A stretch of 64,000 bases of DNA from an uncultured Candidatus Saccharibacteria bacterium (GCA_964362625.1 CAYIFA010000001.1:2994-66993); one strand, 5' to 3'; counted from the stretch's first letter, positions 34,682-64,000 are shown. Notes: generated from the sequence alone by a model not told the origin. Numbers and translations are program-made.

Positions 34682-35210
34682 CTACTGACCCCCTTTCGTC
34701 TCTCATCGACACTATCGGGTTTTTGACCGGCCACCACACGTTAAAGCGCGAATCGTTATATCTGACGGTAAACTGTCTGGCCATTCCCTGATACACGCAG
34801 GATTGCTTGTAGTGGAAAATTGCATCTTCGCTCATCACCACATAAGCATGGCCGTGTTTAGGTGGAATCAAAACTTGCATTTTGTTCTCGGCGCTCGGAA
34901 CAAAGCTCTGCCACTGACCAAACTGGTCTGAATCCGAATCGTAATTCAACACCACTATATAAAACTTGCCCTTAAGGCAAGTCACCAGTTTCCAGGTTCG
35001 GTCATCGCCATGAAAACCACGCAAAACGTATTTGGATGATTTGGCAACGTTGTCTTCCAGAAATTCAAGCTCAAAACCAGTTTCTTGTCTGATAACATCG
35101 GTATAAACCTTCTTGTTATACAACTCCTCATATGTGCCGCGATGATCCTCAAAAGCGAAGTGTTTAAAGACCAAAACGTTTTTTAGTTTTGTCCTTTCAA
35201 CCGAAACCAT
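34674..35210 (-). CDS. dTDP-4-dehydrorhamnose 3,5-epimerase family (RmlC-like cupin)
   Basis: FEDHRG and RGFHGD motifs (compare RmlC DeRGfF and RGLHfQ) are present. The 39-aa hydrophobic N-terminal extension of the ORF is judged spurious, so the start is trimmed to MVSVER. Confidence 0.7.
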   Translation of the reverse strand: MVSVERTKLKNVLVFKHFAFEDHRGTYEELYNKKVYTDVIRQETGFELEFLEDNVAKSSKYVLRGFHGDDRTWKLVTCLKGKFYIVVLNYDSDSDQFGQWQSFVPSAENKMQVLIPPKHGHAYVVMSEDAIFHYKQSCVYQGMARQFTVRYNDSRFNVWWPVKNPIVSMRDERGSVDE

Positions 35211-35350
35211 ACAGTCCTCCTGCCTTTGAGTGGTTTTTATGTCAAGGACCTTCAGACTTAAGGAAAATGATAGCAAAACCAAAAAAAAAGTCCAGAACGC
35301 AAGCACCATCACAGGTTCCCGTATCAATGTATTGACGTTCCGGGAACGTC

Positions 35351-48542: not shown

Positions 48543-49268
48543 TCAGTAGATGAGCGGCCGAAGTTCAATGGCTTCGCGCTTAGCATTTTTGCCAGACCAA
48601 AATGCGACTCCCTTATTGATATATGAAACCGAGAAAAGCGGACGCGAACGAGTCGGCGATAAATTCGGATGCGAACCATGCACCAAATCACCATGCAATA
48701 CGAGCATACTGCCTTTCTTGAAAATCAAATCAATCCTGGGGTATTTCCCATACCGCATGGAATCGCGTATCACCTTGCCGGGATTTGCTCCGGGCGCTTC
48801 ATGGAAGCTGATAGTTGGCCGGGCATCCAGTAGTCCTTCTTTATGAGAACCGGCGTAAACATACAAACTGCCATTTTCGCGATTAGCATCCTCCAAAAAA
48901 ATGTTGATGGTGATATACGCGCCATGTTCAGCTTTAGGATAGGCGTTATCTTGATGCGGATTCCAAGCTTGCATCGCGTATTTGCTTCCGGCTTTTTTAA
49001 AGAGCACTTGGCTCATCAGAGCGACAACCTCGCGTCCCTGCAATTCCTCAAGGATAGTAACCACCCACCACTTACGCATAATACTCCGTACTGACTCCGA
49101 CTCACGGTCTAAATTCATAATCGCCGAAAAATCCGCATCCGCATGATTTTCGATCTCAGCTTTAATCGCATCGCACTCTTCCGGCTGATAGATATTATCA
49201 ACGATCAAATAACCAAAACGGTGATAAAAAGCAGTATCTACTTCATATAAGACTTTTAGCTTTTCCAC
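48543..49268 (-). CDS. Phytanoyl-CoA dioxygenase (PhyH)-family Fe(II)/2-oxoglutarate oxygenase
   Basis: An HxD motif (NPHQDNAY), a YAGSHKEG (GSH) motif and a distal His (LHGDLVHGS) are present. Confidence 0.7.
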   Translation of the reverse strand: MEKLKVLYEVDTAFYHRFGYLIVDNIYQPEECDAIKAEIENHADADFSAIMNLDRESESVRSIMRKWWVVTILEELQGREVVALMSQVLFKKAGSKYAMQAWNPHQDNAYPKAEHGAYITINIFLEDANRENGSLYVYAGSHKEGLLDARPTISFHEAPGANPGKVIRDSMRYGKYPRIDLIFKKGSMLVLHGDLVHGSHPNLSPTRSRPLFSVSYINKGVAFWSGKNAKREAIELRPLIY

Positions 49269-49395: not shown

Positions 49396-51207
49396 CTAAT
49401 CTTTCAATTGTCGAAGAATGTCATAAACCCCAAGAACTTCATAACGCGAACGCCAGTAAGCGGACTCGCAAAGGATTTCTTCCGTGGCCTGCATTAGTCG
49501 CAACGGCGCTTCATTATCGCCAAGCTTCTTCAAACACAGACCGTAAAAAGTGTGCCCTAGTGGGTTTTCCGGGGCAACGCGCCGACAAATATCCTCAAGC
49601 ATTTTTGCGATTTTGGCGAGTTTGACAGGATCAGCAATACCGATTATTTTTTCATAATTAATCTTGTAATCCACTAAAAACCAATAATCGCCTATATCCT
49701 TAGCATCGGGGACAGAGTCGGGATCGGCCACCTTAAACAAATCAACAAAATCCCTAGACCGAGTCTTTTCGCTGGATTCGCGCAGATATTGCCGGCCATG
49801 CGGCCCAATTAAGAAGGCGACATCTTTAGTTTGCAGACTCTCCTCAATCAACCCCTGCTCTACCATCGCGTAATATATTTCAGTTGACGGCAGAGGGTTT
49901 AGGGCTTGAAGCGGATACCAATCATAACAAAGCTCAAGAGCAAAATTTACCGTATCGGAAATCATGCGCACCGTTTCATTCGGAAATCCCAGAATCAGAA
50001 ATCCTTTTACAAATATATGCGGATATTCGTCAATGAATGTTTTAGATTTTCTGAAAGTCGCGAGTGTCCCTGGTTTATGCATGGCCCGGAGCATCTTCTC
50101 ATTGCCGGATTCGATTCCGAGATTAAAGCCGATGCATCCTGATTCAGACATCGCTTGCATAATTGCCGGCGTAATTGCCGCCGAAATCAAGCCGTTGGAA
50201 GCATCCCAGGTTATGTCCATTTTTCTTTCGGTTATTTCATTGAACAAGGCCATCGCTCTTTTACCGTCAAAGAGCAGGTCGTCATCAAGCCAGGTAATGT
50301 GCCTGATCCCATATTTTTCGCTCAACTCCTGAATTTCATCGACAACGCTCTTAACGCTTCTCTCGCGTACTCCTGGTCCATTGAAAGAAGCAACTGAACA
50401 AAAACTGCAATGCGCCCGGCAACCGCGGTTGGAAAGAACGCAAGCGGCCCTACGCCCTTGCCGCATATAAACATAAGACCCAATTTGTCCTCGCGCGTCA
50501 TAAAGCTCCACCGGTAAATCATGATATAAAGGTGCTGCGTCAATTTCGGCCGGACCCGGAGTAGCCCGCTCCTCAATAGCAACGTAATCGCCGCCAATCA
50601 TAGTTCCGATTTGCGCCAAAACTTCTTCGCCCAGATATCCATTTACAAAATCCAGAGTATCCGGAAAGCTTTTATCGCATTCGTATACGCCGATAAAATC
50701 AAGGTGCGGACAATCTTCCATGGCCAACTTTCTGGCGTTAGATAAATGAACTCCGCCGCCAAAAACCGTCAATTCCGGGTCATGCTCTTTGATGGCCGCG
50801 GAAACCAGCTTAATCGCGCTATGCGACATGGTAAACATTCCGGAGAGTCCGACCAAGTGCGGCTGAAATGAGCCGAGACGTTCAATTAACTTCTCCTTCC
50901 AGACACCGAAATAAAAGCTTTCGCGCGCGATATGCGCGTAGTCAAGAACCTCAAGATTAAGATCCAAGATGTCGGTCTGGTAGCCGCGGTTTGTGAGATC
51001 GCGGCAAAGCACTCCCACCCCATAAGGCTGATAGGCCCAGTAGCGATTGCGTATAGCGCGGTCTACAATAAAAGCATGTTCTTCAATGTGCGGAAGCTGA
51101 ATCATAAGAATGCGCGTGCATGGCGTCTTAACCACCGCTTTCAGCTTACGCGCGATTTTCAGCCGTGCATCTTCGCCCTGAGTACTTACCGGCAACTTCC
51201 AGGTCAT
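49396..51207 (-). CDS. Cobalamin (B12)-binding radical SAM enzyme, paralog 2
   Basis: An N-terminal B12-binding-like domain and an SNRGCRAHCSFCSV CxxxCxxC motif are present. Length is 603 aa. Confidence 0.8.
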   Translation of the reverse strand: MTWKLPVSTQGEDARLKIARKLKAVVKTPCTRILMIQLPHIEEHAFIVDRAIRNRYWAYQPYGVGVLCRDLTNRGYQTDILDLNLEVLDYAHIARESFYFGVWKEKLIERLGSFQPHLVGLSGMFTMSHSAIKLVSAAIKEHDPELTVFGGGVHLSNARKLAMEDCPHLDFIGVYECDKSFPDTLDFVNGYLGEEVLAQIGTMIGGDYVAIEERATPGPAEIDAAPLYHDLPVELYDARGQIGSYVYMRQGRRAACVLSNRGCRAHCSFCSVASFNGPGVRERSVKSVVDEIQELSEKYGIRHITWLDDDLLFDGKRAMALFNEITERKMDITWDASNGLISAAITPAIMQAMSESGCIGFNLGIESGNEKMLRAMHKPGTLATFRKSKTFIDEYPHIFVKGFLILGFPNETVRMISDTVNFALELCYDWYPLQALNPLPSTEIYYAMVEQGLIEESLQTKDVAFLIGPHGRQYLRESSEKTRSRDFVDLFKVADPDSVPDAKDIGDYWFLVDYKINYEKIIGIADPVKLAKIAKMLEDICRRVAPENPLGHTFYGLCLKKLGDNEAPLRLMQATEEILCESAYWRSRYEVLGVYDILRQLKD

Positions 51208-53910: not shown

Positions 53911-55800
53911 TTAGATTCTCAACATTTCTTTAACTTTTTTACAAATTTTTTCTTCTGTTGGCGGAAGGTTATCAAGATGCGGGGCAAAACCGGCGGCCCG
54001 CTCTTCAAGGCACAAAACTTCAATGTCGCTCGATCCGCTTTCGCGCATCAAATCATAAGCGACACACTTTGCGACACCGTTTTCAAAATCACCGTCAAGC
54101 ACCAACCCTCGATCGTGCGACCTAAACAAAGCATCTAACATGTCTTCTGTAGCCTCAAACGGTTTAAGCCATAAAAGGTGGACCAAATTACATTTAATCC
54201 CATCTCTCCCAAGGGTCTTCACGGCTTCGATAGCATTAAGCCGCGTAGAAGAAATCGCAAAAATAGTAACTTCGGCATGCTCATGAATAATATCGTCCAT
54301 TTCATAGTCAATCGGAAAACTGCGGCGATGTTCGCTCGAATACACCGGAACATCATGACTCATGAACCGATCCCAAACCTCGCGATATTCTCCGGGTGTC
54401 ATTGGAGCGGCAACGGCTACGCCCGGCATCCTAGTGTAAATGCCGTGATGACTGCCGGATGCTACCGGACCAATTGCGCCGTCCATCGCGATTGAACGAA
54501 TAAACACCGGGCATGAAACCCCCCACATATCTTTTGACTTGGCCGCGTAGTTCAAAATGAACGGGGCGTTAAACCACTGGAATCCCTGATAGCGGACAAT
54601 ATAAATAGGTCGGCGTCCGGCTATTTCTCTGCCATCAACAAATTTCGGCAAACTATGACCAACCGCGATTCCTCCGCCGGCCACATCAGCCATGGAAAGT
54701 TCAGTCAAGCCATCTTTTTCGGTAAGCCCTGGGACGGTTCCGCCGACCCAACCAACCGCGGTCAAACACTGCCCAAGCGCGACACCGCCGTTTTTAAGAT
54801 GCTCGCGCGTAATACTGCGTATTGTCTCGGCTACGGTTAGACTATAGTGACTTGACGTTTGCACTTGCTTGATTTTATGGGTTTGACGGTAATTAATGGC
54901 ATCAGGCGCTACATTCTCTAATTCATCTTTCCACAATTGCATAGCCAAAGTTTCCGCTTCACCTTCAAGCTCTTTCGCTGACCCGGCCAAACCGAGACGA
55001 TGCATTTCTTCCTTAACCAATTCAAACCTATCCCACTCCGGCGGACCATCGTTACCTGTGCCGTTATGCCACAGATGACGAACAACATGGATATTCATGA
55101 ACGCCGGCAGACCTTCAGCAATTAAGCAGTTAGCCATATACATAATTAGCCAAGGGTCATCTGTTATATCAACCGCATACATTTTAAATGCTTGCGCGAT
55201 ATCCTTCACCAGCCAGTTCCGGCGAACTTCAACTTTAGTAAGAATTGAAAGCCCGTTGTCCATACAAACGAACAAAACCGGCGCCTTTTTATGGCTGGCG
55301 TATCCGAGAGAAGCCAACGCATAATCTTCTTCAGCTGAAGCATCGCCCATCACCGCGAGTGTCCTATCGTTATGCCCGAGCGCATATCCGACCGCTATCG
55401 GAATTTGAGTGCCCATCAAGCCGTCGTGGCCGAACATTTTTATTTGCGGGGAATGAATCGAGGCCGAACCACCCATGCCGCGAGCGCATCCGGTTTCTTT
55501 ATGCAACAGTTCATCGCGCAACGCTGCCGGATCGCCGCCATAAGCCAAATATAAATCATGCGAGCGGTGCTGGCCGAAGATTGCCGGATTTTTGAAGACA
55601 GCCGCCAACCCGGCCGCAACCGCTTCTTGTCCGACTGAAAGGTAAACCGGCATTTTTATCAATCCGGCATCATAAGCTTCTTTTACCCTCAACTCAAAAT
55701 AACGGATCCGGCACATCCGCCCGAACATTTCTAAAGAAGTTTCTTTGGAAAACTGTCGGGAGACATTAGAAATCATCCCAAAATCCTTTGATCTGGCCAT
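53911..55800 (-). CDS. Fused TPP-dependent E1 alpha-beta-like protein (single-polypeptide 2-oxoacid dehydrogenase/transketolase-like)
   Basis: A 629-aa protein with an N-terminal E1-alpha-like TPP region (GDASAEEDYALASLGYA) followed by a beta/transketolase-C-like half. Confidence 0.65.
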   Translation of the reverse strand: MARSKDFGMISNVSRQFSKETSLEMFGRMCRIRYFELRVKEAYDAGLIKMPVYLSVGQEAVAAGLAAVFKNPAIFGQHRSHDLYLAYGGDPAALRDELLHKETGCARGMGGSASIHSPQIKMFGHDGLMGTQIPIAVGYALGHNDRTLAVMGDASAEEDYALASLGYASHKKAPVLFVCMDNGLSILTKVEVRRNWLVKDIAQAFKMYAVDITDDPWLIMYMANCLIAEGLPAFMNIHVVRHLWHNGTGNDGPPEWDRFELVKEEMHRLGLAGSAKELEGEAETLAMQLWKDELENVAPDAINYRQTHKIKQVQTSSHYSLTVAETIRSITREHLKNGGVALGQCLTAVGWVGGTVPGLTEKDGLTELSMADVAGGGIAVGHSLPKFVDGREIAGRRPIYIVRYQGFQWFNAPFILNYAAKSKDMWGVSCPVFIRSIAMDGAIGPVASGSHHGIYTRMPGVAVAAPMTPGEYREVWDRFMSHDVPVYSSEHRRSFPIDYEMDDIIHEHAEVTIFAISSTRLNAIEAVKTLGRDGIKCNLVHLLWLKPFEATEDMLDALFRSHDRGLVLDGDFENGVAKCVAYDLMRESGSSDIEVLCLEERAAGFAPHLDNLPPTEEKICKKVKEMLRI

Positions 55801-55894: not shown

Positions 55895-56668
55895 TTAAAT
55901 TGTTTTGGAAACACCGGTTACTTCTTTGACGATTTTTTCCATGCTGGCGAGCAATGACTCGACGCTCGGATCAATTACTAAATCAGGATCTTTAGGCGGC
56001 TCATAAGGTTTATCCGGAGCAACCTCTCCGCCCTTTACATAAATCCAAAAGGGGTTTACGATATCGTCAATTTTCCTTCGTGAATCTTCAAATGCCGCGA
56101 TAACCGATACTACGACGTTATGCCCCTGATTGGCGAGAACCTTAGCCAGCCGGGCGACGCGAAGATAATTTTCTTCGCGATGCTCTTTGCTGTATCCGAG
56201 ATCCACAGAAATCGAAGTCCGCATTTCATCACCGTCTAATACCACTGCGTTCAATCGCTCTTTCAATAAATAAGCAAGCGAGGTTTTGCCCGAACCGGTA
56301 TTACCGGTAAGCCAGACTACGCCTTTTTTGACGCCCCTGACCTTTGTCGCCGAAATTTCTTCGGTTTGTTTATCCAAACGCACTTTCCTTATACCCCAGC
56401 CGACATCCCGCCCATAGCACACTTCGGCAATATCCGGAATCGTAATTATTTCTACGTTAGGATTATCGCCATAAATACGTTTTATGCGTCCTATTCGCTC
56501 ATCCAAGCGATAAGGATTTTTCTCGCTAAATGCCGTTTCTTTGACTGCGATAACCACGCGTTTCCCTTCGTTAAGAACCGAATCAATCAATTTCTTATGT
56601 CCGTCATGAAACGGCTGGTATCTGCCGATAAAAAGCGATGGTCCGGTTGGATTCGTTTTATTGGGCAT
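55895..56668 (-). CDS. Bifunctional protein with an N-terminal NMNAT-like nucleotidyltransferase domain fused to an adenylylsulfate (APS) kinase domain
   Basis: The N-terminus has FIGRYQPFHDGH (an archaeal-NMNAT-like HxGH motif). The C-terminus has VVWLTGNTGSGKTSLAY (P-loop) and VLDGDEMRTSISVDLGYSKEHREENYLR, which matches the APS-kinase DGDNVRHGLNKDLGFSxxDRxENIRR signature. Confidence 0.75.
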   Translation of the reverse strand: MPNKTNPTGPSLFIGRYQPFHDGHKKLIDSVLNEGKRVVIAVKETAFSEKNPYRLDERIGRIKRIYGDNPNVEIITIPDIAEVCYGRDVGWGIRKVRLDKQTEEISATKVRGVKKGVVWLTGNTGSGKTSLAYLLKERLNAVVLDGDEMRTSISVDLGYSKEHREENYLRVARLAKVLANQGHNVVVSVIAAFEDSRRKIDDIVNPFWIYVKGGEVAPDKPYEPPKDPDLVIDPSVESLLASMEKIVKEVTGVSKTI

Positions 56669-56672
56669 ATAT

Positions 56673-57626
56673 TTATTCGAGTGCGCAGTCTTTTAAACTT
56701 AAATTAAAATCGTTCATTCTCTTTTCTACTCTTTCCAGGTCCGTCTGATTAAAAACAGCTTTCCATTTCCCCACTGCGCCGCCGCGGATTTGGGTGTCGC
56801 CGGGCCTGGCACGATCATTGGCTAAGCTCGTTCCTAAATTATGTTCCGCGGCTTTCAAATTGCTTTGGCTGGATAATTCTAGGGCTTGCCGGACTAAATC
56901 ACGCTCGCGGTCAGATCTAGACGCAAACCCGAAATGCCGAAGCATAACTGTAAAAATTTTTTCCGGCTCACGAAGCAAATCCTCATATCTGATCATCAGA
57001 ATGTTGCCGGGAAACATTTCGCGCATCGCCTTAAAGGTAAAAAACTGCTTTATGAAAGCGTCGAGCCCCGCGGAATAAACATAATCTTTTTCGCTCTCAA
57101 AAGGCAGCTTACTGCCGGCGGCATCTTTTTTATACATAATTTGGGGGTTTTTATAATTTTCCAGACTTTTCATAAAAGACATTGCCGAATCCAACGGGTT
57201 GCGATAAATATAAACTATTTTTGAATTTCGGTTATAGCAAGGGTCAAAAACTTTTTTACGCCTGCCCTTTTGCATAATCAAATCGCCATTATCATGCACA
57301 TGCCCCTCGCCGTAAAATTCCAATTTTTCCCAAGCCGTTCGTAAATCACCATTATAATGCTCTTTAAAGCCCGGGCAAGTGGCATGCGCAATAATAAGTT
57401 TATCAAGACCCAAAGTATTCTTTATTTCCTTGCCAAATTCCCGATTTTCGGCGTAAAATTCGCGGACAAGTTCGGTGGAATCAAAAACATCTCCTTTCAA
57501 AAGTTTATGGAGAGCAAAGAAAAAACACCGGCAATACCACGTCCCCGATCTGGTAAGGGTGGCCACTACGCCGACTTTCGGCGGTTTCATCTTAAAAATT
57601 ATCTCCGAATATAAACGCTCAATCAT
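56673..57626 (-). CDS. PAPS-dependent sulfotransferase
   Basis: A 5'-PSB loop (PKVGVVATLTRSGTWY), a 3'-PB motif (IYRNPLD) and a RGGAVGKWK motif (compare RKGxxGDWK) are present. Confidence 0.8.
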   Translation of the reverse strand: MIERLYSEIIFKMKPPKVGVVATLTRSGTWYCRCFFFALHKLLKGDVFDSTELVREFYAENREFGKEIKNTLGLDKLIIAHATCPGFKEHYNGDLRTAWEKLEFYGEGHVHDNGDLIMQKGRRKKVFDPCYNRNSKIVYIYRNPLDSAMSFMKSLENYKNPQIMYKKDAAGSKLPFESEKDYVYSAGLDAFIKQFFTFKAMREMFPGNILMIRYEDLLREPEKIFTVMLRHFGFASRSDRERDLVRQALELSSQSNLKAAEHNLGTSLANDRARPGDTQIRGGAVGKWKAVFNQTDLERVEKRMNDFNLSLKDCALE

Positions 57627-58162
57627 TTATATTGACGGGGCATAAAAACAACGCCGTGCGTTTCAAGAACCTTTATGCCGAGTTTTTCACCCTTGGCCCA
57701 AGTGAGTTTCATCAACTTATCAAATTTTTCGGCGTCATGATTTACGTCAGAATATAAATCCTCTTTATCAAACATAATTGCGCCGACTCCAGTCGCGGAC
57801 ACGATATTTTCCAAATTCAAAATTCCGCGCTCGGTCTCGATTTTTGGAACAATTTCAATATGATTCGGGAGCATCTTTTTTATTTCATTAATGCTTTCCG
57901 GTTCTTCCACATTTGAAACCGCGAAATATTTGACGTGCGGAAATTGATGGGCGACGGCAATCGTCTCCTCCAAACTAATCTTGGGCTTAGGCGGCTTAGT
58001 CCGGCCCTGCGGATAATCAAGGTAAATATCATGCTTGACTTTATTTAACACTCCGCGGAGCTCATCTAAAGAATCTAACCACGCGACATTAACCCGCGCC
58101 ACCATATGCTTGGGAAACTCTACATCCATTTTATCAAGCAAGTAATGAGATATGATTAACAT
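57623..58162 (-). CDS. Hypothetical protein with a pyruvate-kinase-barrel/HpcH-HpaI aldolase-like motif
   Basis: The stretch VPKIETERGILNLENI...GAIMFDKEDL resembles the PK/HpcH signature (IENQEG...DGIMVARGDLG). The assignment is weak. Confidence 0.3.
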   Translation of the reverse strand: MLIISHYLLDKMDVEFPKHMVARVNVAWLDSLDELRGVLNKVKHDIYLDYPQGRTKPPKPKISLEETIAVAHQFPHVKYFAVSNVEEPESINEIKKMLPNHIEIVPKIETERGILNLENIVSATGVGAIMFDKEDLYSDVNHDAEKFDKLMKLTWAKGEKLGIKVLETHGVVFMPRQYK

Positions 58163-58255: not shown

Positions 58256-58600
58256 TTAAAAGTCCTGACCTGCGTAAAACAACTCGGCCAGCACATGCTG
58301 ACAAACCTTCTGCGGGTCAAGAACAAAAAACTGCCAGTAGCCGGGGTTGTCCTCATCCGGCTTTACAAATAGATGACACCACCAATTTTCATTCAGCCAT
58401 TTATTCAACTCGTTCTCGTCTACCGGATAATAATTGGCGTAAAGATGTGCGCCATTGGTGTACGGAAAATAAGTTGGATCGTCTCTTACCTCGAGTTCGA
58501 CATCATCCGATGCTTCGCTCTCAAGTTTTTGTTTCAGGCCGGAAATAACTGGGTCAAGTTCTCTATCGCGATACGCCGTACGCCGGTCAATCACTTTCAT
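58256..58600 (-). CDS. Hypothetical protein
   Basis: The start is trimmed to MKVIDRR. No recognisable motif was found. Confidence 0.3.
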   Translation of the reverse strand: MKVIDRRTAYRDRELDPVISGLKQKLESEASDDVELEVRDDPTYFPYTNGAHLYANYYPVDENELNKWLNENWWCHLFVKPDEDNPGYWQFFVLDPQKVCQHVLAELFYAGQDF

Positions 58601-59582
58601 GCTGACCCCCCCAGGTATACTTATACCATTTAATGGTCTGCCCAATCCCTTCTTCTAGGCTAACAAACGGTATCCACCCTAAACGATCATGGGCTTTACC
58701 GAAATTCATCATCAGAAATATCCCTCCGATTGATGGCTTATTATAATCAAATCGCACTCGGCCAAGCTTTTTTCCGGATAACCGTATCACCATCTTAGTC
58801 AGCTCTAATGTTGAATACACGATCCCGCTCCCTAAATTGAATACCTCATAAGCCAGACCGTTATCAAAGGTCAGTTCAATGAATCGCATAAGATCGCCAA
58901 TATATAAAAAGTCGCGCCGCCCTTGGCCATCTCCCCAAACTTCTATATCTCCGCTCGGCGGAGCATCCATAACCTTCTTGATGGTGGCCCCTAAAACATG
59001 TGAACGATCCAGATCGAATTTATCGTATGGCCCATAAACATTGGAGTGCCTGATAACGGTAAATCGCGTATGCCCAAGCTTAGAATAGAATTCACAGAGT
59101 TTTTCCCCGTAAATCTTCACCCAAGCGCCGGCAAAATATTTAGGATGAATGCGGTTGTAATCAACATCATCCTCGGTGACCGGCCGACCCAAATCCATTG
59201 GATAAAGCACTGAACAGCTAAGAAAAATAAAGTGCTTGACGCCGTTTTTGTGGGCGGCTTCAAGTATATTGGTATTTAGAATTGTGTTATCAAGCAAAAA
59301 TCCCGGATCATTAACAATATACTTTGCGCCAGCAGACACGGCCGCGGCATGAATCACGATATCCACATCTTCAGTAATTTTTCTAACTTGCTCTTTGTCC
59401 ATCAGGTCGCAAGTCCTTACGCTCCACAAATAGGGATTGAGAGTAAGACGACTTCCGTTATAGTCCAAAGGATGACGGCTTACACCAATAACCTCTAAGT
59501 CTTCTCTTTGCCGTAATTTGTCAAATAGGTTCTTGCCGATAAAACCGCTGACTCCTGTTATGAGCACTCTTCTAGTCTTCAT
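58587..59582 (-). CDS. NAD-dependent epimerase/dehydratase (Fcl-like)
   Basis: ITGVSGFIG and HSNVYGPYDKF motifs are present. Confidence 0.75.
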   Translation of the reverse strand: MKTRRVLITGVSGFIGKNLFDKLRQREDLEVIGVSRHPLDYNGSRLTLNPYLWSVRTCDLMDKEQVRKITEDVDIVIHAAAVSAGAKYIVNDPGFLLDNTILNTNILEAAHKNGVKHFIFLSCSVLYPMDLGRPVTEDDVDYNRIHPKYFAGAWVKIYGEKLCEFYSKLGHTRFTVIRHSNVYGPYDKFDLDRSHVLGATIKKVMDAPPSGDIEVWGDGQGRRDFLYIGDLMRFIELTFDNGLAYEVFNLGSGIVYSTLELTKMVIRLSGKKLGRVRFDYNKPSIGGIFLMMNFGKAHDRLGWIPFVSLEEGIGQTIKWYKYTWGGQHESD

Positions 59583-60388
59583 GCCGCTGACCTCACAGTC
59601 CCGCCGTCAACATTAATGACGGTTCCAGTGATGTGTTTGGCTTTATCCGAGGCGAGAAACGCCACGAGATTCGCGACGTCCTCCGGCTCACCCATACGCT
59701 GAAGCGGCGACTTCCTAAAAGTGGATGCTTTGATTTTTTCAGCGGCCTCTTCTATGGAAATATTGTCGCGATTCGCGCGATCCTTAACATTCTCTTCCCA
59801 AAGTCCTCCTTCTAAAGTATTGGGCCTTATGGCGTTTACCAAGATATTGTATCTGGCAAATTCATTGGCCATAGATTTTGTCAAATTTTCCACCGCGGCT
59901 TTGGATACGGCGTAATGCGGATTAAATTCCCCGGGCTGTTTCGCCGGAACCGCAGAAAGGTTAACGATGCGGCCGCTTACGGATTTCTTTAGCCATGGCA
60001 ATGCCTCGCGCGTAAATCTGACCACGCTCATCAAATTGAAAATCCAGTTGTCCAACCAATCGTCATCCGCAAGATCTTCAAACTTTCCGAAACTCAATGG
60101 TCCGCCGAGGTTGTTTACCAAAACGTCTATCTTGTTTAATTGTCGCCACAGCAACGATCGAAACATACCCTTAATTTCATGCGCCTTCATGGCATCCAAA
60201 CAAAAATAATGGCAATAATTTACCGACACCGATCGGACTTCATGATAAGCTAAGTGGGTTCGTGCTTCATCGCGACCACAAATGACAGTTACCGCGCCTT
60301 CCCGCGCCAATTCCATTGCAATCGCCTTGCCGATGCCGCGGCTCGAACCGGTTACCAGCGCCACTTTCCCCGAGAGCGCTAGATCCAT
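59579..60388 (-). CDS. SDR-family oxidoreductase (3-oxoacyl-ACP reductase-like)
   Basis: It has KVALVTGSSRGIGKAIA, NNLG and YAVSKAAV (YxxxK). The start is trimmed to MDLALSGK. Confidence 0.8.
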   Translation of the reverse strand: MDLALSGKVALVTGSSRGIGKAIAMELAREGAVTVICGRDEARTHLAYHEVRSVSVNYCHYFCLDAMKAHEIKGMFRSLLWRQLNKIDVLVNNLGGPLSFGKFEDLADDDWLDNWIFNLMSVVRFTREALPWLKKSVSGRIVNLSAVPAKQPGEFNPHYAVSKAAVENLTKSMANEFARYNILVNAIRPNTLEGGLWEENVKDRANRDNISIEEAAEKIKASTFRKSPLQRMGEPEDVANLVAFLASDKAKHITGTVINVDGGTVRSAA

Positions 60389-60413
60389 TTTTATCTCCTT
60401 TCTGTCTTGGGTT

Positions 60414-60971
60414 TTACGGCAAATCCACAAATCCGCGCCAATGCGCAAGCAGTACACACCCCAAAGCGGTCAACTGCTGAAACTCGCCGGAAACGACCTT
60501 GTTTTGGAATTCGCTAGATGATACAACAAAAACCTCCACGCCTCTTTCCGGTTTTCGGCTGGGATCTTTTTCGGCATCTTTGGCACAAACAATGTGCACG
60601 CGGCTATTAATGCGATCGGCTCCAAAGCGCGCGCTTCCGACATACTCCAAATTATTACAGCAATACCCAGTTTCTTCCAGAAGTTCTCTACGGGCGGCCT
60701 CTATCGGATTTTCTCCATCATCAACCGATCCGGCCGGCAGTTCCAGCATCCAGCTGTTGCAGGCCGGGCGAAAGTGTTTTATCAAAATAAATTCATTATT
60801 CCTAGTGGTTGCCACCACCACAACGCTATCCGGCATATTCATCCGGTAAATCGGCTGGCCTTTGAGCGCCGGCAAGTCAAATTCTTCGCTTTCAATGCTA
60901 AACCACGGCGTCCGGAAAACCGTTTTCTTTTCGGGCATTTCCAATCTCCTATTTATAGGGTTTTCAAGCAA
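60414..60971 (-). CDS. NUDIX hydrolase
   Basis: A canonical Nudix box (LPAGSVDDGENPIEAARRELLEETGY) is present. Confidence 0.85.
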   Translation of the reverse strand: MLENPINRRLEMPEKKTVFRTPWFSIESEEFDLPALKGQPIYRMNMPDSVVVVATTRNNEFILIKHFRPACNSWMLELPAGSVDDGENPIEAARRELLEETGYCCNNLEYVGSARFGADRINSRVHIVCAKDAEKDPSRKPERGVEVFVVSSSEFQNKVVSGEFQQLTALGCVLLAHWRGFVDLP

Positions 60972-61030: not shown

Positions 61031-61963
61031 TTAGTGGTTTGAAAAATAACTTTCGCTTATGACTTGATACCCCTTAATCAATTCCTTGATGCCCTCCGCA
61101 AGGGAAACCTGGGGCTTAAATCCGGTTTTCTCTATTTTCTCGTTTGAAACAATGTAATTTCTTTTATCTTTGTCTTCGCCAATTGGCGTATCCGCAAAAT
61201 ACAAGTAAGGAATATGCTTCTTTATTTCTTCGCAAAGTTCGCGCTTGTTTAAATTGGCATCTGACAACCCGAGATTGAATGCTTGATTTTTCATTCGCTC
61301 AAAATTATCGATTGCGTACAAAAATGCCCGGCCGACATCGCGTATGTGAATAAAGTTTCTCTTGAACTCCGGTTCAAAAAGCATAATACCGGCATCATGC
61401 ACAGCGCGATAGACAAAATTATTAACTAGGAGGTCAAGACGCATACGAGGGCTCGTTCCGAAAACCGTTGCCAGGCGGAAAACTACGGCATTTCCGGCAG
61501 ACATTACCAACCGTTCCGCCTCAACCTTCAATCTCCCATATAACGAAATCGGCTTAAGCGGGCTTTCTTCGGTGCAAAAAACTCCTACTTGGCCTATACC
61601 ATAGCCACTATTGGTATTGGGGAAAATGATTTTTTGTTCCGGACGGCGCAACTCTAATATTAGTTTAACGGCCTCAAGATTTATAGTCTTGGCCTCTATC
61701 GGAAACCGATCGCAGATTGGAGCGCCGACTAACGCGGCTAGCGGAATTATTATGTCGGCGTCTTTAATATATTTTGCCATCAAATCCCGATCCCTGGCAT
61801 CTCCGCGTATAATTTGCAATTTAAAATCGTAACAACAATCCAAGAGCGTGGTTTGTTTAAAAAGAAAATTGTCGATAACAGCGACCTCGTGCCCAGCCGA
61901 CAAAAGCATCGGCGTCAATACCGACCCTATATATCCCGCTCCGCCAGTTACTAATATCTTCAT
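61031..61963 (-). CDS. NAD-dependent epimerase/dehydratase (UDP-glucose 4-epimerase-like)
   Basis: A VTGGAGYIGSVL Rossmann motif is present. Length is 310 aa. Confidence 0.8.
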   Translation of the reverse strand: MKILVTGGAGYIGSVLTPMLLSAGHEVAVIDNFLFKQTTLLDCCYDFKLQIIRGDARDRDLMAKYIKDADIIIPLAALVGAPICDRFPIEAKTINLEAVKLILELRRPEQKIIFPNTNSGYGIGQVGVFCTEESPLKPISLYGRLKVEAERLVMSAGNAVVFRLATVFGTSPRMRLDLLVNNFVYRAVHDAGIMLFEPEFKRNFIHIRDVGRAFLYAIDNFERMKNQAFNLGLSDANLNKRELCEEIKKHIPYLYFADTPIGEDKDKRNYIVSNEKIEKTGFKPQVSLAEGIKELIKGYQVISESYFSNH

Positions 61964-62005: not shown

Positions 62006-63169
62006 TCATAATAATTTTACGCTATTAACTACGCCGCAAATAAATAAAACGTCTTTCTCGCTCATTGATTCATTGTTTGGCAGAAAAAACCCGGTGGAGT
62101 GCACGCGGTCCGAAACCGGATGATGAAACTTTCCATATCGCTCATACCAAAACGGATGTAGCCCCAAATTGCCTGCCGAGAAAAGCCGAGTTTCAATGCC
62201 GCTTTTCACCAATGCCCTTACGATATTTTTACGATGTTCTGGATTTTTTGCAAGAGCGCCGAAAGAAATGCTTACTGGACGTGCCTCATTCGGCCATTGC
62301 TGAAAATCAACGGTTTTTAGATTTTTAGCGTATAGCAAATGGTTTTGATGGCGGATTTTCATAACGCGGTCGGCTTTTTTCATCATTCGAAGTCCGAGAA
62401 AAGCGTTAACATCGGTTGACCGCAAATTAAAGCCAGGAACAAAAAAAGTGAAAGGCTGGTGAAATTCATCTACTTTATGCTTGCGCATATAAGCAGAACG
62501 AACTCCTGGCGGCAAGTCCTTGCCCCAACCATGACTGCGAAGCATTAATAGCAGATGATATAAATCTTTGTTGCTGGTATTAACCATCCCGCCCTCAATC
62601 GTTGATAATTGATGGCCGAAATAAAAAGAAAAAGTGGACATGTCAGAAAACGCGCCGATTTTTTTGCCGCCGTATTCGGCGCCTAGCGCCGCGCAAGCAT
62701 CTTCAATAAGCATAAACCCATATTTTTTCTGGAGAGCTTTCATCACACGCATATGCGTCGGCACCCCAAGTACCTGCACTAACACGACGACCCCCGGTTT
62801 ATGTTTTTTTAATAAGCCCTCCAATTCCGTTAAATCCAAACCAAGACTATCCTTGTCCGCGCCGCACATTACCGGCTCGAACCCAAACTGGATAAATGGA
62901 GCAATGGTCGTTACCCAGCCGACCGAAGGCACGATTACTTTTTTATTTTTCAATTTGCCGGAAAGCAATGCCGCATACGCCGCGAGCAGATTGGCCGATG
63001 AGCCGGAATTACAAAAAACCGCGTATTTAGACCCAATCCAATCCGCCCACTTTTTTTCAAATTCTAATGTGAGCCCACCTTTGGTCAGCTGATTGTTGCC
63101 ATCGAGCCACTGTTTGAGCGCTAGAATGTCGGATCTATCTATTATATTTTTCGCTAGCTTGTACTTCAT
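62006..63169 (-). CDS. DegT/DnrJ/EryC1 family PMP-dependent NDP-4-keto-6-deoxyhexose 3-dehydratase (ColD/RfbH-E1-like)
   Basis: An RfbH-like N-terminus (LTKGGLTLEFEKKWADWIGSKYAVFCNSGSSANL) is present. In FSFYFGHQLSTIEGG, His replaces the usual PLP-binding Lys, as in ColD and the E1 dehydrase. Confidence 0.75.
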   Translation of the reverse strand: MKYKLAKNIIDRSDILALKQWLDGNNQLTKGGLTLEFEKKWADWIGSKYAVFCNSGSSANLLAAYAALLSGKLKNKKVIVPSVGWVTTIAPFIQFGFEPVMCGADKDSLGLDLTELEGLLKKHKPGVVVLVQVLGVPTHMRVMKALQKKYGFMLIEDACAALGAEYGGKKIGAFSDMSTFSFYFGHQLSTIEGGMVNTSNKDLYHLLLMLRSHGWGKDLPPGVRSAYMRKHKVDEFHQPFTFFVPGFNLRSTDVNAFLGLRMMKKADRVMKIRHQNHLLYAKNLKTVDFQQWPNEARPVSISFGALAKNPEHRKNIVRALVKSGIETRLFSAGNLGLHPFWYERYGKFHHPVSDRVHSTGFFLPNNESMSEKDVLFICGVVNSVKLL

Positions 63170-63684
63170 GCCAATTTTTTTATTTTTTCAACAAGTTTAG
63201 TTGTCGAGACTCCTTCGAATTGGGCGGGGCAAGTTCGTTTCAGGACTTCCAGTTTTATGCCATACTTATCTGCCAACTCACGGCGCGCCGTAATTCCGAG
63301 GACATCGTCATTAATAGCGTAAACATCCGGCTTTAAATCGGCAAATGCCGTTTTAATTGCTCCGAACGGAATATCATCCGTCTCGTGGGCAACCAAGCAG
63401 TAATCAACCGGCTTTAAAGATGAAACCATTTTTAGCCGCATATGCTCATTAAAGAAAGGCCGCGAGGGACCCTTTATCTGACGTATGCTCGCATCGTCCC
63501 CAACCTGAACAACCAGGACATCTCCTAATTTTCTTGCATCCTCAAAAAAAAGAACATGTCCGGGGTGAGTCAAATCAAACACTCCGGAAACAAAAACAAT
63601 TTTTTTGTCTTTATGCTCCTGCCTGATTTCTCTAAGGTCATTATGTTGAACAATCGACATGTTATTTTTTTTCATTGGCGACAT
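63166..63684 (-). CDS. Cytidylyl/adenylyltransferase-family sugar-phosphate nucleotidyltransferase (RfaE domain II/TagD-like)
   Basis: It has IVFVSGVFDLTHPGH (HxGH), ARKLGDVLVVQV and DASIRQIKGPSRP, collinear with the HldE adenylyltransferase domain. Confidence 0.75.
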   Translation of the reverse strand: MSPMKKNNMSIVQHNDLREIRQEHKDKKIVFVSGVFDLTHPGHVLFFEDARKLGDVLVVQVGDDASIRQIKGPSRPFFNEHMRLKMVSSLKPVDYCLVAHETDDIPFGAIKTAFADLKPDVYAINDDVLGITARRELADKYGIKLEVLKRTCPAQFEGVSTTKLVEKIKKLA

Positions 63685-64000
63685 AAGCGCGGCAATAATC
63701 CAATAAGAATTTTACGCTTTCTTCAAAACTATATCGCGGCTGCCAGCCGGTGGCCTCGGTGAATTTAGAGTTGTCCGGAATTTGCAAAGTGACATCAGAG
63801 GGCCGCAATAATGCCGGATCAACCCTTGAAGGTATTTCGGCCTTAGCATGTTTCTTCAGCAAATCCAAAAACTCGCCTACTTTAATAGATCTAGTCCCGC
63901 CTATGTTATACACTTCGCCGAACTCGCATTTTTCAGCAGCTGCCCAGTATGAGGCCATGGCATCCCGCACATCAAGCGGAGTGCGCACAGAATCCAGGTT
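63662..64000 (-). CDS. GDP-mannose 4,6-dehydratase paralog, 3' part only; the gene starts beyond the window
   Basis: The C-terminal half of Gmd is present (DVRDAMASYWAAAEKCEFGEVYNIGG ... ATGWQPRYSFEESVKFLLDYCRAYV). Confidence 0.7.
   Translation of the reverse strand, partial: NLDSVRTPLDVRDAMASYWAAAEKCEFGEVYNIGGTRSIKVGEFLDLLKKHAKAEIPSRVDPALLRPSDVTLQIPDNSKFTEATGWQPRYSFEESVKFLLDYCRAYVANEKK

What the first reader, a model, noticed from the sequence alone, without database searches (positions are those of the whole stretch)
62006..64000. ColD/E1-type PMP dehydratase (His in place of the PLP Lys) next to a second Gmd paralog: a 3,6-dideoxyhexose branch
The DegT-family protein has FSFYFGHQL where aminotransferases have the Schiff-base Lys. 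This is the hallmark of ColD (GDP-4-keto-6-deoxymannose 3-dehydratase) and the CDP-sugar E1 dehydrase. It is followed by a nucleotidyltransferase and a truncated second Gmd. This predicts a colitose-like 3,6-dideoxy sugar in addition to the nonulosonic acids.
Basis: partly seen in the sequence, partly recalled or inferred. Interest (0 to 1): 0.5.

Follow-up and report, generated by a model that had tools for sequence, protein, structure and literature searches.

The report
ColD-type sugar 3-dehydratase in heptose cassette
The gene is a genuine iron-sulfur-free, ColD-type sugar 3-deoxygenating enzyme (histidine where aminotransferases have the cofactor lysine), but it belongs to a new, uncharacterised subfamily from uncultured microbes that is wired to heptose (7-carbon sugar) genes, so it probably makes a 3-deoxy or 3,6-dideoxy heptose rather than colitose.

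Summary
ORF 62006..63169(-) is an intact 387-aa DegT-family protein. Its His186 (FSFYFGHQL) aligns without gaps to ColD His188 and E1 His220, and it is invariant in all 120 close homologues. The three distal E1 [2Fe-2S] cysteines are absent, so it is ColD-type and not E1-type.

The protein is 31-33% identical to E. coli ColD and to the C. jejuni heptose C3-dehydratase, which are 62% identical to each other. It is therefore a separate subfamily.

Context points to heptose:
- The downstream SDR (61031..61963) is 57% identical to C. jejuni Cj1427, the GDP-heptose C4-dehydrogenase.
- Both "Gmd" paralogues match the GDP-heptose 4,6-dehydratase (7US5) best.
- An HddA-like heptose kinase lies in the window.
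- Of 39 related loci, 29 carry the Cj1427-like gene beside the dehydratase and 20 carry HddA-like. GmhA-, GmhB- and HddC-like genes are frequent.

The likely product is an NDP-3-deoxy- or 3,6-dideoxy-4-keto-heptose. The 6-hydroxy, 3-deoxy version is so far known only from in vitro enzyme mixing. All function is inferred. I rate it a new variant of a known kind, of moderate interest.

The parts
62006..63169 (-). ColD-type (Fe-S-free) PMP/PLP-dependent NDP-4-keto-sugar 3-dehydratase, new subfamily, 387 aa
   Evidence: Pfam DegT 9.8e-65. Best solved relatives are ColD 2GMS at 3e-51 and E1 3BCX at 1.7e-35. It is 31% identical to ColD, 33% to the C. jejuni HS:5 C3-dehydratase and 30% to E1.
62612..62614 (-). 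Codon of His186, the residue that replaces the Schiff-base lysine
   Evidence: Read from the sequence. Aligned to ColD H188 and E1 H220. Invariant in 120/120 homologues and 44/44 locus copies. A Lys occupies the same column in an ordinary DegT protein of L042.
63166..63684 (-). 172-aa cytidylyltransferase-fold nucleotidyltransferase, RfaE/HldE domain II-like; candidate heptose-1-phosphate nucleotidyltransferase
   Evidence: PF01467 1.4e-13. TIGR02199 rfaE_dom_II scores 97.5 bits (cut-off 181.5), against 33.6 bits for the glycerol-3-P cytidylyltransferase model. The HxGH motif is 'THPGH'. Its stop overlaps the ColD-like start by 4 nt. Near the cassette it never co-occurs with an HddC-like NTP_transferase (6 versus 9 loci, 0 with both).
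63662..64000 (-). C-terminal 112 aa of 'Gmd2', a 327-aa extended SDR of the Gmd/Rmd/heptose-4,6-dehydratase clade (full length in L001:776-1759)
   Evidence: L001 is 99.97% identical to the window end. Best solved relatives are 7US5 GDP-heptose 4,6-dehydratase (1.9e-54), 2PK3 Rmd reductase (1.4e-53) and E. coli GMD (6e-39). The motifs STSE (127) and YAASK (154) are retained.
61031..61963 (-). Cj1427-like SDR, 310 aa; candidate NDP-heptose C4-dehydrogenase that supplies the 4-keto substrate
   Evidence: PDB 6VO6/6VO8 at E = 1e-116 with a gapless alignment. That chain is 96% identical to the representative of a C. jejuni cluster of 313-aa proteins, which sits in the capsule heptose locus at the Cj1427 position. 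BLAST identity is 57%. It lies beside the ColD-like gene in 29 of 39 loci.
60414..60971 (-). Nudix hydrolase, NudE/YffH-like NDP-sugar pyrophosphatase type
   Evidence: PF00293 1e-17; NF008736 NudE 60 bits; TIGR00052 40 bits. It recurs in L003, L011, L024 and L031.
59579..60457 (-). Classical SDR (FabG-like), candidate ketoreductase
   Evidence: adh_short_C2 1.1e-47. Orthologues at 46-48% identity directly follow the Cj1427-like gene in L004 and L009.
58587..59582 (-). GDP-fucose-synthase/ColC-like extended SDR (candidate epimerase/C4-reductase)
   Evidence: NF047922 Fcl 157.6 bits (cut-off 500). PDB GDP-fucose synthetase 1e-34. Among the window's SDRs compared, it is the best match to the C. 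jejuni HS:5 C4-reductase. Orthologues at 42-46% identity occur in seven related loci.
44886..45878 (-). HddA-like GHMP kinase (D-glycero-D-manno-heptose 7-phosphate kinase type)
   Evidence: Top NCBIfam hit is NF049969 HddA, 145 bits, below its cut-off of 600. It is 55% identical to the kinase of the full GmhA/HddA/GmhB/HddC set in L006. HddA-like genes lie near the ColD-like gene in 20 of 39 loci.
43823..44803 (-). [quoted passage not shown]
   Evidence: PDB 7US5 at 1.2e-82 against E. coli GMD at 7e-39. It is 47% identical to Gmd2.
34674..35327 (-). RmlC-fold sugar 3/5-epimerase
   Evidence: PF00908 6e-37. GDP-heptose epimerases 8DB5 and 8DCO score as well as RmlC. It is 34% identical to the HS:5 C5-epimerase.
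39664..41677 (-). PDH-E1 alpha/beta-like thiamine-diphosphate enzyme pair (possible C-branching step; membership in the pathway is inferred from synteny elsewhere)
   Evidence: E1_dh 8e-47 and Transket_pyr/Transketolase_C. Orthologues follow the ColD-like/Cj1427-like pair directly in about 10 loci.

Best explanation
ORF 62006..63169(-) encodes a ColD-type sugar 3-dehydratase. It has an aminotransferase fold, binds PMP non-covalently because His186 replaces the Schiff-base lysine, and has no [2Fe-2S] cluster, so it needs no E3-type reductase.

Inferred mechanism, by analogy with ColD and the C. jejuni HS:5 enzyme:
1. PMP forms a ketimine with the C4 keto group of a nucleotide-linked sugar.
2. 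His186 abstracts the C4' proton and the 3-OH leaves.
3. The enamine is hydrolysed to a 3-deoxy-4-keto sugar plus ammonia.
4. PLP is returned to PMP with L-glutamate, which releases 2-oxoglutarate.

[quoted passage not shown] Two neighbours could make it. The adjacent Cj1427-like C4-dehydrogenase (61031..61963) would give a product that keeps the 6-OH. The upstream Gmd2, if it acts as a 4,6-dehydratase, would give a 6-deoxy product. The immediate product would then be NDP-3-deoxy- or 3,6-dideoxy-4-keto-heptose.

The Fcl/ColC-like SDR (58587..59582), the classical SDR, or Gmd2 acting as an Rmd-type reductase would finish the sugar for a surface glycan. An ABC exporter lies just upstream.

Shown here: the fold, the His, the absence of the Fe-S motif, subfamily status and the conserved synteny. 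Inferred: the substrate, the nucleotide, the order of steps and the product.
For: - His/Lys column and ColD over E1. Invariance of the His.
- No Fe-S motif: only four Cys, none in the region that aligns to E1 C251, C253 and C261. Review PMC8987622 gives these as the features that separate ColD from E1 and SpnQ.
- Operon-like packing on one strand: Gmd2 stop overlaps the nucleotidyltransferase start by 23 nt, the nucleotidyltransferase stop overlaps the ColD-like start by 4 nt, and a 42-nt gap precedes the SDR.
- The downstream SDR resembles Cj1427: 1e-116 and gapless to 6VO6. The 6VO6 chain matches a 313-aa C. jejuni protein that lies beside RmlC-like, Fcl-like, GHMP, SIS and NTP_transferase genes.
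- Gmd1 and Gmd2 both match the GDP-heptose 4,6-dehydratase best.
- An HddA-like kinase is in the window.
- L006 carries the cassette next to a complete GHMP kinase / NTP_transferase / SIS / HAD set.
- Census of 39 distinct loci from eight or more phyla: Cj1427-like in 29 (27 of the 32 loci with at least 2.5 kb downstream), HddA-like in 20, GmhA-like in 10, HddC-like in 9.
- Precedent: the C. jejuni HS:5 C3-dehydratase acts on GDP-6-deoxy-4-keto-heptose with PLP and Glu (PMC10440746). It also accepts the Cj1427 product to give GDP-3-deoxy-4-keto-heptose in vitro (PMC10680097).
Against: - No enzyme of this subfamily has been assayed.
- Identity to any characterised 3-dehydratase is only 30-33%.
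- No NCBIfam equivalog cut-off is reached: RfbH 185 of 423, PseC 193 of 423.5.
- The window itself has no GmhA, GmhB or HddC homologue. The heptose link for this genome rests on HddA-like, Cj1427-like, the 7US5-like paralogues and synteny in other genomes.
- HddA-like scores 145 bits against a cut-off of 600.
- The nucleotidyltransferase resembles the ADP-heptose enzyme (RfaE domain II), so the nucleotide may not be GDP.
- Three Chlamydiia-type loci carry the gene without any heptose neighbours.
- A Gmd-like gene, an Fcl-like gene and a Nudix gene together also resemble a colitose cluster.
- The AlphaFold model was too poor (pLDDT 63) to add a structure-based check.
Confidence: 0.6

Rival explanations
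1. Canonical colitose-type pathway. GDP-mannose is converted by Gmd2 to GDP-4-keto-6-deoxymannose, then by the ColD-like enzyme to the 3,6-dideoxy-4-keto hexose, then by the Fcl/ColC-like SDR to a 3,6-dideoxyhexose. The Nudix protein would act like Gmm.
For: A Gmd-family gene, a His-type dehydratase, an Fcl-like SDR and a Nudix hydrolase lie on one strand within 6 kb. ColD is the best solved relative.
Against: - Identity to ColD is only 31%, whereas real ColD orthologues, including the heptose-specific one, share 62-67% (PMC10440746).
- Gmd2 matches GMD far worse (6e-39) than the heptose dehydratase or Rmd (about 1e-54).
- No ManB or ManC is in the 64 kb.
- The conserved partner is a Cj1427-like dehydrogenase, which a colitose pathway does not need.
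- Gmd2 is absent from many full-flank loci that keep the pair.
- Heptose genes co-localise with the family.
Confidence: 0.13
2. The ColD-type chemistry is the same, but the substrate is some other nucleotide sugar. One option is an ADP-heptose made by the RfaE-II-like transferase. Another is a 4-keto intermediate that feeds the nonulosonic-acid or other higher-sugar branches of this very large cluster.
For: The nucleotidyltransferase is RfaE domain II-like. The window holds three NeuB-family synthases, two CMP-sugar synthetases, thiamine-diphosphate enzymes, radical SAM enzymes and sulfation genes, so the chemistry is clearly unusual. The Chlamydiia loci lack heptose neighbours.
Against: The 57% identity of the partner SDR to a GDP-heptose-specific enzyme, and the co-occurrence with HddA-type (alpha-anomer, GDP route) kinases and HddC-like transferases in most loci, favour GDP-heptose.
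Confidence: 0.17
3. E1/RfbH-type CDP-4-keto-6-deoxyglucose 3-dehydrase that makes an abequose-, paratose- or ascarylose-type sugar. This is how JGI and NCBI pipelines label several homologues.
For: Database names for P0022, P0068, P0080, P0084, P0093 and P0119. The RfbH model scores 185 bits. The His is shared with E1.
Against: The three distal Fe-S cysteines are missing. The score is below the RfbH cut-off of 423. No E3-like reductase, CDP-glucose 4,6-dehydratase or glucose-1-P cytidylyltransferase was found in the window. The E1 match is weaker than the ColD match (126 against 178 bits).
Confidence: 0.02
4. A sugar 4-aminotransferase (PseC/LegC/perosamine-synthase type) that serves the nonulosonic-acid genes of the window.
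For: PseC is the top NCBIfam hit (193 bits) and LegC-family scores 116 bits. NeuB and NeuC genes are present. SpnQ can transaminate in vitro (PMC8987622).
Against: There is no lysine at or near the Schiff-base column. The scores are far below the cut-offs. The solved aminotransferases score 1e-29 or worse, against 3e-51 for ColD.
Confidence: 0.03

Closest known systems
ColD, GDP-4-keto-6-deoxy-D-mannose 3-dehydratase (E. coli O55:H7 WbdK, PDB 2GMS/3B8X/3GR9)
   Same: It has the same fold. The same His replaces the Schiff-base Lys, and no Fe-S motif is present. The surrounding motifs are conserved: SGSxANL, ED(A/N)C, EGG, R(S/A)HGW, PG(F/Y)N(L/V)R and IE(T/C)R. By inference it is self-sufficient, using PMP/PLP with glutamate.
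   Different: Identity is only 31%. The conserved gene partner is a C4-dehydrogenase rather than only a 4,6-dehydratase. The context is heptose rather than mannose. Hosts are uncultured Patescibacteria, DPANN and other MAG lineages rather than enterobacterial O-antigen clusters.
C. jejuni HS:5/HS:11 GDP-6-deoxy-4-keto-heptose C3-dehydratase (A0A0U3ALB0; PMC10440746)
   Same: It is the only characterised 3-dehydratase that works on heptose nucleotides. It uses PLP and L-Glu and releases 2-oxoglutarate and ammonia. In vitro it also accepts the Cj1427 product (PMC10680097). Its gene context likewise includes a heptose 4,6-dehydratase, an RmlC-like epimerase and an Fcl-like reductase.
   Different: Identity is 33%. 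The C. jejuni enzyme belongs to the ColD clade proper (62% to E. coli ColD). In C. jejuni it is paired with the 4,6-dehydratase, not with Cj1427.
[quoted passage not shown]
   Same: Identity is 57% over the full length with no gaps, and YxxxK is retained. In both C. jejuni and the related loci it lies next to HddA-, GmhA- and HddC-like genes.
   Different: In C. jejuni it feeds epimerases and reductases, not a 3-dehydratase. That 6VO6 is the Cj1427 entry is partly my recollection. It is supported by the C. jejuni origin, the 313-aa length and the locus position.
E1 (RfbH/DdhC/AscC), CDP-6-deoxy-L-threo-D-glycero-4-hexulose 3-dehydrase, PDB 3BCX
   Same: The catalytic His is shared (H220), and one Cys (C193, equivalent to C159 here) is conserved.
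   Different: C251, C253 and C261 of the [2Fe-2S] motif are absent. No E3 partner was found. Identity is 30%.

Membership tests
NDP-sugar 3-dehydratases (ColD/E1/SpnQ class) | Fold-type I aminotransferase (DegT/DnrJ/EryC1) scaffold | tested here: met
   PF01041 at 9.8e-65, covering 12-379 of 387 aa.
NDP-sugar 3-dehydratases (ColD/E1/SpnQ class) | Histidine in place of the PLP Schiff-base lysine | tested here: met
   H186 aligns to ColD H188 and E1 H220. A canonical DegT protein has Lys in the same column. The His is invariant in 120/120 homologues.
ColD-type (Fe-S-independent) 3-dehydratase | Absence of the four-Cys [2Fe-2S] motif | tested here: met
   Only C53, C102, C159 and C378 are present. 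E1 'DCYCAPGCDNTC' aligns to 'D--LPPGVRSAY'.
ColD-type (Fe-S-independent) 3-dehydratase | Orthology to characterised ColD (characterised members share 62-67% identity) | tested here: not met
   Identity is 31% to E. coli ColD and 33% to the C. jejuni HS:5 enzyme. It is therefore a separate subfamily, not a ColD orthologue.
ColD-type (Fe-S-independent) 3-dehydratase | PMP/glutamate-dependent C3 deoxygenation of an NDP-4-keto sugar | not testable with these tools
   This needs an enzyme assay.
Colitose gene set (Gmd, ColD, ColC, ManB/ManC) | GDP-mannose supply and a true GMD | tested here: not met
   No ManB or ManC domain was found in the ORFs of at least 120 aa that were scanned. Both Gmd-like proteins score far better to the heptose dehydratase or Rmd than to GMD.
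E1/RfbH CDP-hexose 3-dehydrase | [2Fe-2S] motif, an E3 reductase partner and the NCBIfam RfbH cut-off | tested here: not met
   The motif is absent. The RfbH model scores 185 bits against a cut-off of 423. No E3-like gene was seen in the window.
GDP-heptose deoxygenation pathway (C. jejuni HS:5 type) | Heptose 4,6-dehydratase homologue in the cluster | tested here: met
   Gmd1 matches 7US5 at 1.2e-82 and Gmd2 matches it at 1.9e-54.
GDP-heptose deoxygenation pathway (C. jejuni HS:5 type) | [quoted passage not shown] | tested here: inconclusive
   In the window only HddA-like is present, and it scores below the cut-off. GmhA, GmhB and HddC are not found there. In related loci HddA-like occurs in 20 of 39, GmhA-like in 10, HddC-like in 9 and GmhB-like in 6, with the full set in L006.
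GDP-heptose deoxygenation pathway (C. jejuni HS:5 type) | Downstream epimerase and C4-reductase | tested here: met
   An RmlC-like gene at 34674..35327 and an Fcl-like gene at 58587..59582.
Sugar 4-aminotransferases (PseC/LegC/Per) | Schiff-base lysine | tested here: not met
   His occupies the column and there is no Lys between residues 171 and 200.

The most novel reading that the evidence does not exclude
The conserved two-gene unit (Cj1427-type C4-dehydrogenase plus this His-type 3-dehydratase) is a natural, self-balancing module. The dehydratase turns glutamate into 2-oxoglutarate. The dehydrogenase consumes 2-oxoglutarate to re-oxidise its bound NADH. Together they convert an NDP-D-glycero-heptose directly into an NDP-3-deoxy-4-keto-heptose without 6-deoxygenation.

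That sugar class has so far been made only by mixing C. jejuni enzymes in vitro (PMC10680097). In many lineages, and possibly here, the 4-keto product would then be C-4 branched by the PDH-E1-like thiamine enzymes. These follow the pair in about 10 loci. The result would be branched nine-carbon sugars on the surfaces of Patescibacteria, DPANN archaea and other uncultured microbes.
Probability: 0.3. Interest if true: 0.65.

Novelty: new variant of a known kind. Interest (0 to 1): 0.5.

Why it matters
Candidate-phyla-radiation bacteria and DPANN archaea have tiny genomes, yet this contig spends more than 40 kb on exotic sugar chemistry. Their surface glycans are essentially unknown and probably mediate attachment to hosts.

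A conserved, widely transferred dehydrogenase/3-dehydratase pair tied to heptose genes gives a concrete, testable prediction: 3-deoxy or 3,6-dideoxy heptoses, possibly branched. It also offers a new enzyme subfamily for chemo-enzymatic synthesis of rare deoxy-heptoses.

It corrects current pipeline labels as well. Homologues are annotated as 'CDP-6-deoxy-D-xylo-4-hexulose-3-dehydrase (E1)' or as generic aminotransferases, and neither label fits.

Tried and rejected
1. AlphaFold2 on the 15-sequence alignment A1 gave a poor model: mean pLDDT 63, and below 50 for residues 171-198 around His186. I did not use it and ran no fold search. The residue assignment rests on gap-free HMM alignments and an internal Lys control.
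2. I tried to read the primary ColD, E1 and Cj1427 structure papers (PMC2242600, PMC2533848, PMC2782820, PMC7509852, PMC7500870 and the JBC DOI). None is held. ColD GDP-contact residues therefore could not be compared, and the nucleotide specificity stays open.
3. Full-text searches for '6VO6/6VO8' found nothing relevant. I checked the identity of that PDB chain indirectly instead.
4. Looking up the window's own proteins reached only two short sister contigs, L001 and L002. The 67,966-bp NCBI contig implied by P0121 was not retrievable, so only 1.4 kb beyond the window end is known. It holds the rest of Gmd2 and an MsbA/PglK-like ABC exporter.
5. I tried to decide whether Gmd2 is a dehydratase or an Rmd-type reductase from catalytic motifs. 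This failed because Rmd keeps the same Ser/Thr-x-Glu and YxxxK residues.
6. tblastn of the L006 GmhA, GmhB and HddC proteins against the window found nothing at E < 1e-4.
7. The E1-type and aminotransferase readings were rejected on the Cys motif and the Lys column.
Full report
**1. What is at the coordinates**

All genes in 57-64 kb lie on the minus strand and are tightly packed. In transcription order:
- A truncated extended SDR (63662..>64000), whose stop overlaps the next gene's start by 23 nt.
- A 172-aa cytidylyltransferase-fold protein (63166..63684), with a 4-nt overlap into the next gene.
- The 387-aa DegT-family ORF (62006..63169), followed by a 42-nt gap.
- A 310-aa extended SDR (61031..61963).
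- A Nudix hydrolase, a classical SDR and an Fcl-like SDR.

The contig is from a Patescibacteria (candidate phyla radiation) population. The 100%-identical database entry is labelled 'Patescibacteria group bacterium'. The sister contigs, L001 and L002, come from ENA assemblies whose record names begin 'Hain_H51_01um'. L001 is 99.97% identical to the window end over 3694 nt and extends 1.4 kb further. It gives the full 327-aa SDR ('Gmd2') and, upstream of it, an MsbA/PglK-like ABC exporter.

**2.

FSFYFGHQL is at residues 180-188 and the His is residue 186 (codon 62612..62614). phmmer against all PDB chains puts E. coli ColD first (2GMS, 3e-51) and E1 next (3BCX, 1.7e-35). Aminotransferases score 1e-29 or worse.

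- The alignment around the His has no gaps. The engineered ColD variants H188N, H188K and S187N/H188K differ from wild type in exactly the column occupied by His186.
- Counting along the 3BCX chain, the same column is E1 His220.
- An ordinary DegT protein found by chance in locus L042 has Lys in this column ('YSFYPTKNLGALGDG'). That is an internal control for the Lys/His equivalence.
- There is no lysine between residues 171 and 200.
- The His is present in 120/120 homologues and in 44/44 family copies in 39 genomic loci, down to 32% identity.

A structure-based check was attempted, but the AlphaFold model was too poor to use (pLDDT 63).

**3. ColD-type, not E1-type**

Review PMC8987622 states that E1 and SpnQ carry a four-Cys [2Fe-2S] motif that ColD lacks, and that ColD instead hydrolyses the enamine and regenerates PMP with glutamate.

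In the alignment, E1 reads 'EDCCDAL ... WGRDCYCAPGCDNTC' (C193, C251, C253, C261 by chain numbering). The window protein reads 'EDACAAL ... HGWGKD--LPPGVRSAY'. Only the C193 equivalent (C159) is kept, as it is in ColD. The protein has four cysteines in total. No E3-like reductase was found among the window's annotated ORFs.

**4. Not a ColD orthologue**

Using the C. jejuni HS:5 C3-dehydratase sequence from the supplement of PMC10440746 and the ColD and E1 sequences read from the PDB alignments, I compared the four proteins:
- The window protein is 31% identical to ColD, 33% to the HS:5 enzyme and 30% to E1.
- ColD and the HS:5 enzyme are 62% identical to each other, in line with the 62-67% stated in that paper.

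No NCBIfam equivalog cut-off is reached: PseC 193 of 423.5 and RfbH 185 of 423. The closest 120 database relatives (64-100% identity) are all from metagenomes. The named ones carry only generic or E1-type pipeline names, and most have no name. This is a distinct, uncharacterised subfamily of His-type dehydratases.

**5. The neighbours point to heptose, not mannose**

(a) The SDR immediately downstream matches PDB 6VO6/6VO8 at 1e-116, without gaps. [quoted passage not shown] I tested this as follows:
- The 6VO6 chain is 96% identical to the representative of a cluster of 313-aa C. jejuni proteins with 439 members.
- That gene sits between an RmlC-like/Fcl-like pair and a GHMP kinase, SIS and NTP_transferase (hddA-gmhA-hddC) next to capsule genes. 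That is the Cj1427 position.
- BLAST identity of the window SDR to the C. jejuni protein is 57%.

[quoted passage not shown] Its paralogue Gmd1 (43823..44803, 47% identical) matches 7US5 at 1.2e-82 against 7e-39 for GMD.

(c) The window encodes an HddA-like GHMP kinase (top NCBIfam hit, but below the cut-off) and an RmlC-fold epimerase that scores as well to GDP-heptose epimerases as to RmlC.

(d) No ManB or ManC is present in the scanned ORFs of the 64 kb.

**6. Comparative genomics**

Context look-ups for three homologues and a scan of one genome per GTDB species gave 39 distinct loci. They come from Patescibacteria, Gammaproteobacteria, Alphaproteobacteria, Elusimicrobia, Nitrospira, Chlamydiia, Hydrogenedentota and Nanoarchaeota, and all are MAGs. 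I placed reference proteins on these loci with tblastn. Counts out of 39 loci:

| Neighbour | Loci | Notes |
|---|---|---|
| Cj1427-like SDR (54-82% identity) | 29 | within about 2 kb; 27 of the 32 loci with at least 2.5 kb downstream |
| HddA-like kinase | 20 | |
| Gmd2-like | 13 | |
| GmhA-like (SIS) | 10 | |
| PDH-E1 alpha-like thiamine enzyme | 10 | |
| HddC-like NTP_transferase | 9 | never together with the 172-aa transferase |
| GmhB-like (HAD) | 6 | |
| 172-aa RfaE-II-like transferase | 6 | never together with HddC-like |

- L006 carries Gmd2, ColD-like, Cj1427-like, E1 alpha/beta, three SDRs and then GHMP kinase, GT2, NTP_transferase, SIS and HAD. That last group is the complete GDP-heptose route.
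- At least nine loci with 10 kb on both sides keep the ColD-like/Cj1427-like pair but have no Gmd-like gene. The invariant unit is therefore dehydrogenase plus 3-dehydratase.
- HddC-like and the 172-aa transferase never occur together, which suggests that they substitute for each other.
- The exceptions are three Chlamydiia-type loci with no heptose neighbours. Two divergent loci (46-47% identity) have a Gmd1-like dehydratase and HddA but no Cj1427-like gene. That arrangement resembles C. jejuni HS:5.

**7. Most likely mechanism**

Shown: the fold, the catalytic His, the absence of Fe-S, the operon-like arrangement and the conserved synteny.

Inferred from ColD and HS:5 biochemistry (PMC8987622, PMC10440746, PMC10680097):
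- PMP forms a ketimine at C4 of an NDP-4-keto-heptose.
- His186 promotes loss of the 3-OH.
- Hydrolysis gives the 3-deoxy-4-keto sugar and ammonia.
- Glutamate regenerates PMP and yields 2-oxoglutarate.

The 4-keto substrate comes from the Cj1427-like dehydrogenase (6-OH kept) and/or from Gmd2 acting as a 4,6-dehydratase (6-deoxy). Cj1427 needs 2-oxoglutarate to re-oxidise its bound NADH (PMC9978623 and PMC10680097). The two enzymes could therefore exchange 2-oxoglutarate, which would give a biochemical reason for their fixed adjacency.

The Raushel laboratory made GDP-3-deoxy-4-keto-heptose with exactly this enzyme combination in vitro and called the resulting 3-deoxy-heptoses novel.

Finishing steps would fall to the Fcl/ColC-like SDR (58587..59582), to the classical SDR (59579..60457), or to Gmd2 if it is an Rmd-type reductase. 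Sequence motifs cannot separate the two roles for Gmd2, because Rmd keeps the same S/T-x-E and YxxxK residues.

**8. Rivals**

- A true colitose (hexose) pathway remains possible (about 0.13). It explains neither the obligate Cj1427-like partner, nor the heptose-type paralogues, nor the low identity to ColD.
- A different nucleotide or substrate (about 0.17) cannot be excluded. The window lacks GmhA, GmhB and HddC, and its transferase resembles the ADP-heptose enzyme.
- The E1-type and aminotransferase readings fail defining features.

**9. Novelty and score**

The chemistry class is known, and pipelines already label relatives as 'E1 dehydrase'. What is new:
- A deep, widespread subfamily confined so far to uncultured lineages.
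- Its fixed pairing with a Cj1427-type dehydrogenase and with heptose genes.
- The implied natural 3-deoxy or 3,6-dideoxy heptoses, which may be elaborated further. PDH-E1-like thiamine enzymes, of the kind proposed to install C-4 two-carbon branches (AviB1/AviB2, PMC4753412), follow the pair in about 10 loci. The window also has such enzymes, along with sulfation and radical-SAM genes.

Everything functional is inference from sequence and synteny. I rate it a new variant of a known kind, with interest 0.5.

Noticed in passing
window 39664..41677 (-) and 53911..55800 (-); L003, L006, L008, L012, L015, L026, L029, L033, L035, L037: PDH-E1 alpha/beta-like thiamine-diphosphate enzymes sit inside the sugar cluster: a split pair plus a fused 629-aa form. 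Orthologues lie directly after the ColD-like/Cj1427-like pair in about 10 related loci. This resembles the AviB1/AviB2 and yersiniose logic of adding a two-carbon branch at C-4 of a 4-keto deoxysugar.
   Followed up: partly
window 63166..63684 (-) versus HddC-like genes in L006-L044: Near the cassette, the 172-aa RfaE-II-like nucleotidyltransferase and the HddC-like NTP_transferase never occur together (6 loci versus 9, none with both). This suggests non-orthologous replacement of the heptose-1-phosphate nucleotidyltransferase.
   Followed up: partly
window 55895..57626 (-); L004 16885..18737 and 11154..11939: A sulfation module lies next to the cassette: a sulfotransferase plus a cytidylyltransferase-like::APS-kinase fusion. 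In a Daviesbacteria locus the equivalent is Sulfotransfer_3, an APS kinase and an inositol-monophosphatase/CysQ-like gene. This hints at a sulfated glycan.
   Followed up: no
window 36377..38440 (-), 49396..51207 (-), 46078..47472 (+), 48543..49268 (-): Two B12-binding radical SAM enzymes, a HemN-like radical SAM enzyme and a PhyH-family dioxygenase are embedded among the sugar genes. Their roles are unknown; C-methylation or hydroxylation are guesses.
   Followed up: no
window 4918..5928, 12024..13568, 17551..18633 (-); 6857..7570, 13568..14302 (-): There are three NeuB-family synthases, one fused to a cupin domain. With them are two CMP-sugar synthetases, a NeuC-like 2-epimerase, a ROK kinase and a transketolase. 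That is an unusually rich set for nonulosonic or other higher-sugar acids in a small-genome organism.
   Followed up: no
L015 14096..15265; L031 3297..4400: Two related loci carry a second His-type DegT paralogue (32-36% identical, 'AHHMSSIEGG' and 'GHHLSTIEGG'). They may therefore have two 3-dehydratases in one cluster.
   Followed up: no
L020, L022, L028: Chlamydiia-type MAG loci carry a 60-62% identical ColD-like gene with no Cj1427-like, Gmd-like or HddA-like gene within 10 kb. In these loci the family may use another substrate.
   Followed up: no
L004 9144..9935, L006 9161..9943, L009 ~3952 (opposite strand): A conserved 260-aa protein with no Pfam domain occupies the slot between Gmd2 and the ColD-like gene on the opposite strand. 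In the window that slot holds the nucleotidyltransferase.
   Followed up: no
window 1743..2633 (-): A NusB::Nudix fusion protein (NusB domain at 7-136, Nudix domain at 176-288).
   Followed up: no
window 58256..58645 (-) and 57623..58162 (-): A 129-aa ORF with no family match overlaps the end of the Fcl-like gene. It is followed by a 179-aa fragment-sized protein with weak HpcH/pyruvate-kinase-barrel similarity. This might be a PEP- or pyruvate-handling step.
   Followed up: no
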